This document shows positions 2,629 through 37,165 of a stretch of DNA of 37,735 bases, piece by piece. The position numbers were made by a program, and so were the translations under genes. Positions within the stretch are counted from its first letter, which is position 1. Each line of letters begins with the position of its first letter. The stretch comes from a virus (Duplodnaviria; Caudoviricetes): IMG/VR virus record IMGVR_UViG_3300037483_000349, positions 1 to 37,735 of that record; one strand, written 5' to 3'. Below the pieces are notes generated by a model. That model saw only the letters and a list, made by a program, of their open reading frames with translations, was not told the origin of the DNA and did no database searches.

Positions 2629-3218
2629 ACGCGCTGCAATCCATTCAATCGGAGTTGAGAGCACCCAAAAATCAGACTAATAAGTTCGGGGGGTATAACT
2701 ACCGATCCTGCGAGGATATTCTTGAGGCGGTCAAGCCCTTGTTAAAAACGTATGATTCTGTTTTGACTATCTCTGATGAAATAGTGGAGGTAGGCGGGAG
2801 AGTCTACGTCAAGGCCACGGCACGACTCACCGAAAAGGCGGGCGTCGTCACGGAAACAACGGCCTTCGCCCGCGAAGCCGAAAACAAGAAGGGGATGGAC
2901 GAGAGCCAGATAACCGGCGCCGCATCATCCTACGCCCGTAAATATGCCTTGAATGGTCTGTTTTGCATCGACGACAACAAGGATGCCGACACCGGGCACC
3001 ATGATCAACAGCCGCGCAAACCCGTCACCGAAGCACCGGCCACACCAGTCAAAATCCCGCTTGAAAACGTGCTGGCGGAAATGGAGGGGGCGTTCAGCCT
3101 GAAGGAACTCGGTGACATTTTCAAATCCCGGTCGCCGATGGCCCAGGCTTGTTATTCCAAGGGCGAACTTGATGCCATGATCGCAAAGAAGGATGAACTC
3201 AAGGGCAGGTTGAAGTGA
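2625..3218 (+). CDS. erf: ERF-family single-strand annealing protein
   Basis: APKNQTNKFGGYNYRSCEDILEAVKP; SQITGAASSYARKYALNGLFCIDD. Confidence 0.92.
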   Translation: MNALQSIQSELRAPKNQTNKFGGYNYRSCEDILEAVKPLLKTYDSVLTISDEIVEVGGRVYVKATARLTEKAGVVTETTAFAREAENKKGMDESQITGAASSYARKYALNGLFCIDDNKDADTGHHDQQPRKPVTEAPATPVKIPLENVLAEMEGAFSLKELGDIFKSRSPMAQACYSKGELDAMIAKKDELKGRLK

Positions 3219-3613
3219 ACCTCAAGCTAACCCTAATATCGGATGCGGTAAGGGATCGGGCGCTGTCCGTGGTCCGGTCCCTGCCGCTGGGACACGAGAT
3301 TGTGATTCGACCGGCGAAGAGCAAGCGGAGCAATCAGGCGAATGCACTTTACTGGCGCTGGATTGACGTTATCCGGCTCCACGTTCTCGATTCCACCGGA
3401 CAGGCTTACGGCGCCGATGCTCTCCACGAATGGCTAAAGGGCAAGTTCTTGCCGACCGTGACCGTTGAGATTGGCGGGGAGGTGCAGCGGTGCAGGCTCA
3501 GCACAGCAAAGCTCAACACCAAGGAAATGAGCGAGTACATGGAAAAAATCGACTTTTATTGTGTAAACAACCTCAGTTTGTATTTGCCAATTCCCGGAGT
3601 TGAGGAAGAATAA
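3215..3613 (+). CDS. ninB: NinB/YbcN-family recombination protein
   Basis: KRSNQANALYW and STAKLNTKEMSEYMEKI motifs. Confidence 0.8.
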   Translation: MNLKLTLISDAVRDRALSVVRSLPLGHEIVIRPAKSKRSNQANALYWRWIDVIRLHVLDSTGQAYGADALHEWLKGKFLPTVTVEIGGEVQRCRLSTAKLNTKEMSEYMEKIDFYCVNNLSLYLPIPGVEEE

Positions 3614-3648
3614 TGTTGAATTTTGTCAGCGAAAATGGGAAAATCGTG

Positions 3649-3776
3649 GTGCTGACAAATAGTTGCATTGTTGTTCGTCCCACCACAAACCATACGCTTA
3701 GGCCATCCAAGGCCGAACGCCCCCAAACGGTGCAGCTATTTGTCAGCGCAAATGCAAGCCTTGGGGGCGTTTTTTT
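3649..3776 (+). promoter_or_regulatory. attenuator-like leader
   Basis: 3649-3667 is complementary (17/19, both others G-U) to 3731-3749, which lies in the loop of stem cgcccccaa/ttgggggcg followed by T7. Confidence 0.6.
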
Positions 3777-3789
3777 ATGCCCCAACGCT

Positions 3790-4075
3790 TATGCTCTGGC
3801 AGTGGGGCGCGGAAAAACATCATTGCCCGGGAAGATCGCGACTTCCGTTTCCGCCGAGCATCGCGGCCCAGTCGATGCAAAAACAAAAGTGCTGGCAACC
3901 GTGTCCCATAGGACCAGCGACCTGATGCCCCGAAAGGGGTTGCCTCATCAGACGCCCGTAAGGGTGGGGGAGAGGGCTAAGTCTCCCAGGAGGAACGCAC
4001 CGTTTATGGTGCGGGCTGTAAAGCCGGGGACCCGATTACTTCCGAGACTACATCAGGGAGGAAAGGGGTATACCT
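3790..4075 (+). ncRNA. candidate structured non-coding RNA
   Basis: about nine consecutive stems, three capped by GNRA tetraloops (cccc-gaaa-gggg, cgccc-gtaa-gggtg, ggct-gtaa-agcc). Confidence 0.55.
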
Positions 4076-4102
4076 GTCACTAAAATAAAAAAGGAGGATA
4101 AA

Positions 4103-4312
4103 ATGGAGTGCAAGAACTGCGGTCACGAGTGTTACAGGGACGAGGTTCACGTTGGAGTTGGGGTTGTTTCCGGCCCATGGGGGTGTCCTTGCGGATGGAG
4201 CGAGGATGATAGATACAATCTTCTGGATGGACCCAAGAAAACAGCGAAGGGCGGGACCATAGATCAGTATGGCGGGGTTATCCCGAATCGCGACAATGGA
4301 GGCATGAAATGA
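4103..4312 (+). CDS. small Cys-rich protein (69 aa)
   Basis: AAGGAGG RBS; CKNC and CPCGW. Confidence 0.8.
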   Translation: MECKNCGHECYRDEVHVGVGVVSGPWGCPCGWSEDDRYNLLDGPKKTAKGGTIDQYGGVIPNRDNGGMK

Positions 4313-30557: not shown

Positions 30558-30701
30558 ATGACCCTCACCGACCTAAAAGCCGCCGTCAAAGCCCTGGATG
30601 TTGCCGATCTGCGCAGCCTCCGGGCCACCATCAACGCCATACTCTCCCACCAGAGCGGGGCAAAGCGAAAATCCAGGAAGGGGATATCGCTGAAGAAATA
30701 A
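30558..30701 (+). CDS. 47-aa helical basic protein
   Basis: MTLTDLKAAVKALDVADLRSLRATINAILSHQSGAKRKSRKGISLKK*. Confidence 0.6.
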   Translation: MTLTDLKAAVKALDVADLRSLRATINAILSHQSGAKRKSRKGISLKK

Positions 30702-33726: not shown

Positions 33727-34410
33727 TCAATCCAGCAGGTTCGGCATTAGCCGATACGGTGACACCGATTGTTCTTCGCTACCCTGGTTCAGGTACGCCT
33801 CAAACTTTGTGCCGAATAATGTCTCAGGCCGCAGATACTCCACCATTTTTGGGTCCCCTCTCCATTGATCCGTTTTGGTGTCAATGACACTTTCAAAATC
33901 CGCCAGCCGGAAACCCTCTCGCCATCGCGCCTGAATGATCTGTCTGGTTTTCGGTGTTGTGGGGCGGAATGCCTTCCCGGTTTTGTCGTTCAGGTGGTTT
34001 ATAATTTTCTGAAAAGGGACAATGTCTGGTGGTTGTTTATATGATGGTTCTTTATTACGGTTTATGTGACACTGTGTCACCTCGTATATGTCGTCAATGT
34101 CACACGGTGCGGTCGTCAATGTCACATCGTTGTGACACTGTGTCACATCGTGGATCGGAAGGGTATAGAGGTTTGTTTTTTTTATCCCTTGGGCTGTCCT
34201 TTTTCTGTAGAAAAGTAGTTTTTTGTCGTTCAGGGATTTTACCACCCTGATAATCGTCCGTCTTGAAACCCCTGTTTTTTTTGCTATCCCCTGCATTCCC
34301 GGCCAGCATACCCCTTCGTTGTCAGCGTGGTCTGCAAAGGCAATCAGCACAAGTTTCTCTGTCGGTGAGCAATTTTGTTTCCATGCCCACGACGTGGCTT
34401 CTACACTCAT
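33727..34410 (-). CDS. phage replication initiator (N-terminal wHTH, conserved phage C-terminal domain)
   Basis: KLVLIAFADHADNEGVCWPG; YLRPETLFGTKFEAYLNQ; upstream of dnaB. Confidence 0.9.
   Translation of the reverse strand: MSVEATSWAWKQNCSPTEKLVLIAFADHADNEGVCWPGMQGIAKKTGVSRRTIIRVVKSLNDKKLLFYRKRTAQGIKKTNLYTLPIHDVTQCHNDVTLTTAPCDIDDIYEVTQCHINRNKEPSYKQPPDIVPFQKIINHLNDKTGKAFRPTTPKTRQIIQARWREGFRLADFESVIDTKTDQWRGDPKMVEYLRPETLFGTKFEAYLNQGSEEQSVSPYRLMPNLLD
34064..34150. repeat. iteron cluster, probable replication origin inside the initiator gene
   Basis: tgtgacactgtgtcac x2 (palindromic) and gtcgtcaatgtcaca x2. Confidence 0.8.
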
Positions 34411-36970: not shown

Positions 36971-37165
36971 TTACTGATACCAAACGGACAATATAACGCT
37001 GACAAAAGCTGTTATAATCCCACCAAATATCATGACCGTCTGCACAATCATTATAAATGTCGGGGGATATTCCCCCTCGTCCCGGCAACACTTGTCAATG
37101 TGTATCCAGCACACCCCCGCCAAAGTTATCAGAGCTGCGGTTATATAGATTTTCAAAAAAAACAT
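36971..37165 (-). CDS. two-TM membrane protein (64 aa)
   Basis: AGGAG RBS right after attC B; AT-rich. Confidence 0.7.
   Translation of the reverse strand: MFFLKIYITAALITLAGVCWIHIDKCCRDEGEYPPTFIMIVQTVMIFGGIITAFVSVILSVWYQ

What the first reader, a model, noticed from the sequence alone, without database searches (positions are those of the whole stretch)
3790..4075. ~300-nt hairpin-dense structured RNA candidate
Stems: ggcagtg/cattgcc (3798-3827), whose loop gcggaaa can pair with tttccgc (3848-3854) as a possible pseudoknot; ggaag/cttcc; gcatcg/cgatgc; gctgg/ccagc; ctgatg/catcag enclosing cccc-GAAA-gggg; cgccc-GTAA-gggtg; gggaga/tctccc; cgcacc/ggtgcg; ggct-GTAA-agcc. cctgatg has an alternative partner catcagg at 4051. 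Three GNRA loops in ~100 nt point to a + strand RNA. It sits between ninB and small ORFs in an otherwise tightly packed arm. I recognise no known family; ribozyme, regulatory or primer RNA roles are speculation.
Basis: partly seen in the sequence, partly recalled or inferred. Interest (0 to 1): 0.72.

Follow-up and report, generated by a model that had tools for sequence, protein, structure and literature searches.

The report
Swappable k-turn RNA in phage operon
An uncultured sediment phage carries, among its early genes, a roughly 190-base stretch that related phages swap or lack and that matches no catalogued RNA family; it is predicted to fold into a kinked, multi-hairpin RNA that would likely be cut out of the message and bind a host protein, but its fold, expression and job are untested.

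Summary
All listed stems are present, but 3790-4075 is not one RNA. Related contigs break the region at 3620-3625, 3846/3847 and 4075-4088, giving two modules. Module 1 (3614-3846) is a terminator/antiterminator-like leader (z -5.2). Module 2 holds a core of about 190 nt (3889-4081) between two A-tracts. Its signals exceed chance: three GNRA hairpins (1 of 2000 shuffles), a 3' tail that pairs back in nested order (5 of 2000), and the genome's only canonical kink-turn at the base of the closing helix (0 of 3000). All three tests were chosen after seeing the sequence, and folding energy alone is only moderate. No Rfam family and no alignable homologue were found, so covariation is untested; no RNA run was listed. 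A 156-codon frame spans both modules and is unexpectedly open (p about 0.003), but it is not conserved as protein. Best reading: an orphan phage RNA cassette, excised from the early transcript and acting as a protein-bound RNA (0.35). It is probably a real structured RNA (about 0.7).

The parts
3215..3613 (+). ninB, the gene upstream; its stop overlaps the next ATG (TAATG)
   Evidence: PHROG 72 and Pfam PF05772; sequence
3613..4083 (+). 156-codon open frame across both modules, started by the ATG coupled to the ninB stop; likely translated, not conserved as protein
   Evidence: open in 0.35% of 20000 shuffles; codon score not significant, 104 of 1000; only self-like proteins found
3614..3846 (+). 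Module 1: attenuator-like leader, shared unchanged by allele B
   Evidence: z -5.19 for 3640-3790; run X8 contig identical over 3591-3846
3649..3749 (+). 24-bp hairpin (3649-3672 with 3726-3749), predicted antiterminator; its 5' arm can instead pair with 3622-3631
3715..3776 (+). Predicted intrinsic terminator: 12-bp stem 3715-3726/3761-3772 with a 34-nt loop and U7; competes with the 24-bp hairpin and with 3764-3783
   Evidence: constrained folds -57.1 against -54.2 kcal/mol at 3776, and -60.0 against -65.8 at 3790; not called by the simple scanner, whose loop limit is 8
3798..3846 (+).
3846..3847 (.). Natural swap point: allele B continues with unrelated sequence
   Evidence: loose end in run X8; protein P0122 identical for 78 residues, then unrelated
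3858..3878 (+). 6-bp hairpin ahead of the 5' A-tract
   Evidence: pair probability 0.97-0.99
3879..3888 (+). A-rich linker, proposed 5' cutting zone
   Evidence: sequence; role inferred
3889..4081 (+). Module 2 core: candidate ~190-nt structured RNA
   Evidence: 3' 42 nt seen before a different gene in run X16
3914..3920 (+). Kink-turn, bulged strand: C-helix CC, bulge AGC, then G and A; partner strand 4058-4061
   Evidence: definition in PMC8191799
3921..4057 (+). 7-bp closing helix CCTGATG/CATCAGG (3921-3927 with 4051-4057); alternative local partner at 3946-3951
3928..3939 (+). GAAA-capped hairpin
   Evidence: pair probability 0.98-0.99
3953..3966 (+). GTAA-capped hairpin
   Evidence: pair probability 1.0
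3980..4049 (+). Inner domain: helices 3980-3985/4044-4049 and 3989-3993/4039-4043 enclosing hairpins 3996-4013 and 4014-4025 (GTAA loop)
4082..4097 (+). 3' A-tract and ribosome-binding site (GGAGG, 4093-4097); mosaic joins at 4075, 4081 and 4088
4103..4312 (+). 69-aa gene downstream; occurs without the RNA in other phages
   Evidence: 8 of 8 non-self relatives lack the RNA upstream

Best explanation
Positions 3889-4081 are a swappable cassette that likely encodes a small structured RNA, predicted to be made by read-through of the upstream attenuator-like leader, likely cut out of the early message at its A-rich flanks, and predicted to fold into a kink-turn-closed, multi-hairpin shape that would work bound to a host protein as a decoy or scaffold. 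Shown: the stems, the kink-turn consensus, the GNRA cluster, the swap points and the absence from relatives. Inferred: transcription from the rightward early operon, the fold in which the 3' tail zips back onto 3921-3993, excision by host nucleases, and protein binding. The last rests on the published rule that a Watson-Crick pair next to the G-A pairs (here C3921-G4057) stops a k-turn folding in metal ions alone, so a protein or tertiary contact is needed. The open 156-codon frame would let ribosomes follow the polymerase across the cassette and limit polarity; the excised piece would lack that start codon.
For: Three GNRA hairpins against 0.11 expected, 1 of 2000 shuffles, none on the minus strand. 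Kink-turn consensus on a 7-bp helix: the only one in the genome on either strand, 0 of 3000 shuffles; 0.9% if a 5-bp helix is accepted. Nested pairing of the 3' tail: 21 bp against a mean of 12, 5 of 2000. Core z -3.16, 0 of 200. Run X16 holds 4040-4081 with 2 differences before a different gene, and its visible upstream changes fall in a predicted unpaired junction. Independence from neighbours: NinB relatives at 62-65% identity have no insert; 8 of 8 non-self relatives of the downstream gene lack it, and L116 joins at 4075. K-turn rule: PMC8191799, first fifth of the text.
Against: No alignable homologue, so no covariation: 5 pattern scans of viral contigs, 1 of metagenomes, BLAST of 401 and 239 genomes and two single-sequence models gave only the same phage or chance hits. 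All three motif statistics were chosen after seeing the sequence. The whole 3889-4081 stretch folds only at z -1.95 (8 of 300), and the model with the k-turn arm is 5 kcal/mol above the computed minimum. A local fold without the k-turn is about as likely (0.26-0.65). The C-helix is only 2 bp. The 156-codon frame is open beyond chance and stays open for 70 more codons in allele B. The X16 evidence is one 151-nt contig of depth 2. No partner protein is identified.
Confidence: 0.35

Rival explanations
1. Cis-acting punctuation element: the fold marks a processing site or shields the 5' end of the downstream message, and is swapped with other such devices at this junction.
For: At least three states at the junction (this allele, allele B, none). 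A tRNA-like element lies about 280 nt ahead of the homologous 69-aa gene in L121. A short helix 3893-3897/4075-4079 could close the RNA like an acceptor stem.
Against: No T-loop or tRNA call; no known self-cleaving core; 190 nt with a k-turn is more than a cut signal needs.
Confidence: 0.23
2. Conformational switch in cis: the two folds, toggled by a ligand or by ribosomes on the 156-codon frame, control the small genes downstream, in the manner of IsrK/orf45 or P4 immunity leaders.
For: Two near-equal folds; attenuator-like module 1; open frame with a coupled start; IsrK and P4 precedent in PMC4825925 passages.
Against: No terminator after the core; the ribosome-binding site is mostly unpaired in full context (about 0.72); the downstream gene occurs without the RNA and the RNA end before another gene; no C4-family Rfam hit; no tyrosine integrase found.
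Confidence: 0.13
3. The 156-aa ORF is a real, fast-evolving protein with an exchangeable C-terminal half, and the hairpins are incidental.
For: Coupled start and ribosome-binding site; frame open in 0.35% of shuffles while the other five frames carry 4-5 stops; allele B keeps the frame open.
Against: No homologue beyond the two alleles among 5.8 billion and 1.84 billion proteins, apart from one borderline hit at E 1e-3; codon score 104 of 1000 shuffles, against z 2.0-6.4 for five of six control genes; model pLDDT 0.23; the X16 variant has a 1-nt shift and an in-frame stop just before 4040 (read).
Confidence: 0.1
4. A self-cleaving ribozyme of a new class.
For: Compact multibranch fold with GNRA loops, a k-turn and a possible pseudoknot 3894-3898/3940-3944.
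Against: No conserved catalytic core can be shown; no known core motif.
Confidence: 0.07
5. Non-functional mosaic DNA whose stems are chance.
For: Whole-region z -1.68; 7 of 263 genome tiles fold as well as the core; no conservation shown.
Against: GNRA, k-turn and nested-tail signals coincide on one strand; the 3' end recurs in another context.
Confidence: 0.12

Closest known systems
P4 CI RNA / P1 c4 antisense RNA / Gifsy-1 IsrK leaders (Rfam RF01695; PMC4825925 passages)
   Same: Structured leader inside a phage operon, with a terminator, one segment complementary to sites up- and downstream (3650-3659 against 3622-3631 and 3739-3748), an overlapping ORF, and a downstream RNA released by processing.
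   Different: No Rfam match at E up to 10; no antirepressor among the neighbouring ORFs scanned; no tyrosine integrase found; the core RNA is larger and carries a k-turn.
GOLLD and ROOL ornate phage RNAs (passages of bioRxiv 10.1101/2024.12.08.627333, and PMC5737381)
   Same: Phage-borne, multibranch RNA of unknown function.
   Different: About 190 nt against more than 800 nt for many GOLLD members; no tRNA in this genome; no Rfam match.
K-turn orphan motifs Actinomyces-1, drum, HOLDH, RAGATH-18 (PMC8191799)
   Same: Standard k-turn with a C-G pair at -1b:-1n in an RNA of unknown function (HOLDH has U-A there).
   Different: Those have a non-Watson-Crick 3b:3n pair and were predicted to fold in metal ions; here it is C-G, predicted to need protein. 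No Rfam match.
6S RNA (RF00013)
   Same: Similar length and a long irregular closing arm.
   Different: Multibranch rather than rod-with-bubble; no similarity to a profile of 30 6S RNAs.

Membership tests
Any Rfam 15 family | Covariance-model score at the gathering cut-off | tested here: not met
   0 hits in the window; best local scores 13.9-17.7 bits, far below their cut-offs
Standard k-turn | 3-nt bulge followed by tandem G-A and A-G pairs between two helices | tested here: met
   bulge 3916-3918, G3919/A4059, A3920/G4058
Standard k-turn | C-G pair at -1b:-1n and a canonical helix beyond it | tested here: inconclusive
   C3915-G4060 present, but the helix is 2 bp before an internal loop
Standard k-turn | Kinked fold on protein or ion binding | not testable with these tools
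   needs FRET or probing; the rule predicts poor folding in ions alone
c4 / CI antisense immunity RNA | Match to the C4-family models | tested here: not met
c4 / CI antisense immunity RNA | Antisense segment with targets on both sides | tested here: inconclusive
   present in module 1; 9-10 bp complements from module 2 to 3725-3749 exist, but module 2 against module 1 is not significant (514 of 1000)
c4 / CI antisense immunity RNA | Controls an antirepressor operon of a temperate phage (recalled) | tested here: not met
   no antirepressor hit among 30 ORFs; no PF00589 integrase; other integrase types not searched
Hammerhead ribozyme | Both conserved core strands around stem II (core motif recalled) | tested here: not met
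   first core strand only on the minus strand, second absent within 70 nt; no Rfam hit
HDV-like / theta ribozyme | Nested double pseudoknot with P3/L3 and J4/2 (recalled) | tested here: not met
   3798-3854 has no room for P3/L3 or J4/2 (sequence); no Rfam hit; partner strand absent in allele B
Group I intron | P7 strands in the order R then S, forming the P3-P7 pseudoknot (recalled) | tested here: not met
   the complementary strands occur in reverse order and nested
tRNA / tmRNA | Cloverleaf with a T-loop | tested here: not met
6S RNA | Sequence and structure similarity to 6S | tested here: not met
   30-sequence profile: no nhmmer hit on the element; 37 of 100 shuffles score as well for this allele and 27 of 60 for allele B
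Retron / DGR primer RNA | Cognate reverse transcriptase nearby | tested here: not met
   no PF00078 in the complete genome
GOLLD / ROOL | Family model match, large size, often near tRNAs | tested here: not met
Conserved structured RNA in general | Covariation among homologues | not testable with these tools
   only identical copies and fragments of at most 52 nt of variants were reachable

The most novel reading that the evidence does not exclude
A class of exchangeable phage RNA cassettes: self-closing k-turn RNAs swapped like accessory genes at one junction of the early operon, gated by an attenuator, shielded from polarity by an open dummy reading frame, and released to sequester a host k-turn-binding or defence protein.
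Probability: 0.15. Interest if true: 0.75.

Novelty: new variant of a known kind. Interest (0 to 1): 0.45.

Why it matters
Phage non-coding RNAs of unknown function are a growing class, and few carry a motif that predicts a biochemical partner. A k-turn predicted to need protein makes a pull-down a direct test. Natural alleles at one junction (this RNA, allele B, none) give ready comparisons. If confirmed, it would show phages shuffling folded RNAs the way they shuffle accessory genes. For now it rests on one sequence and a few short contigs.

Tried and rejected
Homologue searches that gave only the same phage or chance: INPHARED blastn, 2 short hits; PLSDB, none. Viral pattern scans gave 1, 1, 24, 3 and 24 matches, one in each being the same phage and the rest not alignable. 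Metagenome scan: 78 matches, 77 unrelated. Allele-B peptide in viral contigs: none. NinB alignment in genomes: none. 29 Erf loci without the element. BLAST of 401 genomes (5 with E up to 0.01) and of 239 genomes (6 with E up to 0.005): all short chance matches; only 2 candidates per genome were scored. Model R1 over 73 sources and 151 genomes: one 26-bit hit inside apparent coding sequence. Model R2 over 68 sources and 151 genomes: self only. Five virus records with DNA and both models. Closing-helix pattern in 239 genomes: 64 genomes matched, 30 of the loci were scored, best 13.9 bits. No RNA holder listed among 21 runs; this is no evidence on expression. 8 of the 21 runs were laid, and one of them gave nothing. 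Rejected ideas: internal duplication of the two modules (301 of 1000 shuffles); antisense target elsewhere in the genome; homology of allele B to this allele from its translation (6 of 60; a six-residue likeness near 3980-3999 stays unproven); structure in allele B from a codon-degenerate profile (test insensitive, it fails on this allele too); 6S mimicry (two of ten pairwise tests beat all 25 shuffles but in different parts of 6S; the profile test was negative). The host is not identified: DnaB N-terminus 25-39% across 118 of 121 genomes, so the genome sets searched may be the wrong clade. Literature: no paper with structured RNA + phage + NinB; two riboswitch reviews for Geobacter + phage + noncoding RNA + k-turn (listing only). 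Six supplementary files of PMC10690425 had no match; files 1, 2 and 4 were not searched and could hold this RNA.

Full report
Setting. The window is a complete 37.7-kb phage record with direct terminal repeats. It has a P22-type coat protein, portal and terminase and a rightward operon with exonuclease, Erf, NinB, a YbcO-type nuclease and SSB. No tyrosine integrase, reverse transcriptase or tRNA was found. Runs that hold the stretch are sediment and soil metagenomes. The host is not identified.

Observation. Taken as one unit, 3790-4075 is marginal (z -1.68, 10 of 200 shuffles), and its hairpin count is not beyond chance (p 0.20). The 5' part has no excess stability (z +0.79). The core 3920-4062 gives z -3.16 with 0 of 200 shuffles as good, a level reached by 7 of 263 genome tiles. 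Energy alone is therefore moderate evidence.

Boundaries from natural variants. In run X8 a contig is identical to 3591-3846 and then runs on with unlike sequence. Protein P0122 is identical to the overlapping ORF for 78 residues and unrelated for the next 70, which places the same junction at 3846/3847. I call this allele B. Other contigs leave the window at 3620 and 3625 (runs X8, X10, X15) and join it at 4075 and 4088 (runs X14, X8). Locus L116 has a NinB-family fragment abutting the same 69-aa gene, joining at 4075 with no RNA. NinB relatives at 65% and 62% identity run directly into other genes. One contig in run X16 carries 4040-4081 with 2 differences and continues into a different ribosome-binding site and start codon. 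The partner strand of the proposed pseudoknot (3848-3854) lies just beyond the swap point and is missing at that place in allele B.

Module 1 (3614-3846). This is the most stable structure in the gap (z -5.19). A 24-bp hairpin (3649-3749) competes with a 12-bp stem followed by seven U (3715-3776). The segment 3650-3659 can pair either upstream (3622-3631) or downstream (3739-3748). Constrained folds favour the terminator by 3 kcal/mol when transcription has reached 3776 and the read-through form by 6 kcal/mol at 3790. I read it as an attenuator-like switch; this is inferred. The layout recalls the P4 seqA/CI/seqC scheme described in passages of PMC4825925, but no C4-family model matches.

Module 2 core (3889-4081). 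It lies between A-tracts at 3879-3888 and 4082-4092. Three signals stand out, each tested after I had seen the sequence. First, three GNRA-capped hairpins against 0.11 expected (1 of 2000 shuffles; none on the minus strand; 3 of the 13 on the plus strand of the genome). Second, the 3' tail pairs back in nested order onto 3989-3993, 3980-3985 and 3921-3927 (21 bp against a mean of 12; 5 of 2000). Third, the outer end of the 7-bp closing helix carries a standard kink-turn: bulge AGC at 3916-3918, G3919 and A3920 facing A4059 and G4058, and C3915-G4060, C3914-G4061. It is the only such consensus in the genome on either strand (span up to 200 nt) and appeared in 0 of 3000 shuffles; with a 5-bp helix allowed the rate is 0.9%. 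An irregular arm (3901-3907/4065-4071, 3893-3897/4075-4079) can extend it to both ends. The rules in PMC8191799 (first fifth of the text read) say that a Watson-Crick pair at 3b:3n gives poor folding in metal ions. Here that pair is C-G, so the kink would need a protein or a tertiary contact.

The overlapping frame. The ATG at 3613 overlaps the ninB stop and follows a purine-rich ribosome-binding site. The frame stays open for 156 codons, which happened in 0.35% of 20000 shuffles; the other five frames carry 4-5 stops. Allele B keeps it open for 70 further codons. This is real evidence that an open frame is favoured. The product does not look like a conserved protein: no homologue beyond these alleles except one borderline hit, no Pfam or PHROG family, a codon score matched by 104 of 1000 shuffles and a model with pLDDT 0.23. 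The X16 variant shows a 1-nt shift and an in-frame stop just before 4040, although its frame then ends on a stop that overlaps the next start codon (read). The one substitution between P0121 and the window falls in a hairpin loop at 3869 and changes the residue. I read the frame as a spacer that keeps ribosomes moving across the cassettes; this is inferred.

Mechanism. Most likely (0.35): read-through of module 1 transcribes the cassette, host nucleases cut it out at the A-rich flanks, the tail zips back to form the k-turn-closed fold, and the RNA acts bound to a host protein. The motifs and the mosaic boundaries are shown; expression, fold, excision and partner are not. Rivals are a cis processing or stabilising element (0.23), a cis switch (0.13), chance (0.12), a protein gene (0.10) and a new ribozyme (0.07).

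Comparison and novelty. No Rfam 15 family matches. Hammerhead, HDV-like, group I, tRNA/tmRNA, 6S and primer-RNA membership each failed a defining feature (several core motifs recalled). It resembles c4/CI/IsrK loci in layout and GOLLD/ROOL in being a phage multibranch RNA of unknown function (passages seen) but belongs to none. No homologue long enough for covariation was found in any collection (see Tried and rejected). Searches found no paper on such an element; three supplementary files of the largest phage RNA survey (PMC10690425) were not searched. Verdict: a credible orphan phage RNA cassette with a testable motif, unproven. Interest 0.45.

Noticed in passing
window 36997-37012 (minus strand): A third exact copy of the 10-mer repeated in module 1, extending to about 15 of 16 bases; 9 matches with up to 1 mismatch against 2.5 expected, three of them the module's own. 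Possible antisense target or protein site; local alignment to the rest of the genome was not significant.
   Followed up: partly
window 34064-34151: Direct and inverted repeats inside the replication initiator gene, likely origin iterons.
   Followed up: partly
window 3771-3777: The terminator U-tract forms an in-frame T TTT TTA heptamer in the 156-codon frame (slippery type, recalled); the -1 frame stops at 3909.
   Followed up: no
window 30558-30701: 47-aa ORF with a weak match to the H-NS N-terminal domain (E 0.0019, below the cut-off).
   Followed up: no
L116:1354-1450: Two identical 32-nt repeats with a 33-nt spacer in a phage record, a mini CRISPR-like array (likeness to type I-C repeats recalled).
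   Followed up: no
L121:2140-2220 (same flank in L122, L123): tRNA-like element (tRNA-Sec model 39.6 bits, cut-off 47; GUA anticodon loop) about 280 nt upstream of the homologue of the 69-aa gene.
   Followed up: partly
L133:1165-1555 (also L134, L141, L142): A 390-nt hairpin-rich stretch with GNRA loops in another phage, z -4.88, no Rfam hit, unrelated to this RNA: a separate candidate structured RNA.
   Followed up: partly
L181:1501-1521 and L186:1501-1520: A dispersed repeat in genome G365 shares 20-21 exact bases with window 3874-3894; probably chance.
   Followed up: partly
order of G076: 14 of 37 genomes have two or three 6S RNA matches, several over the cut-off.
   Followed up: no
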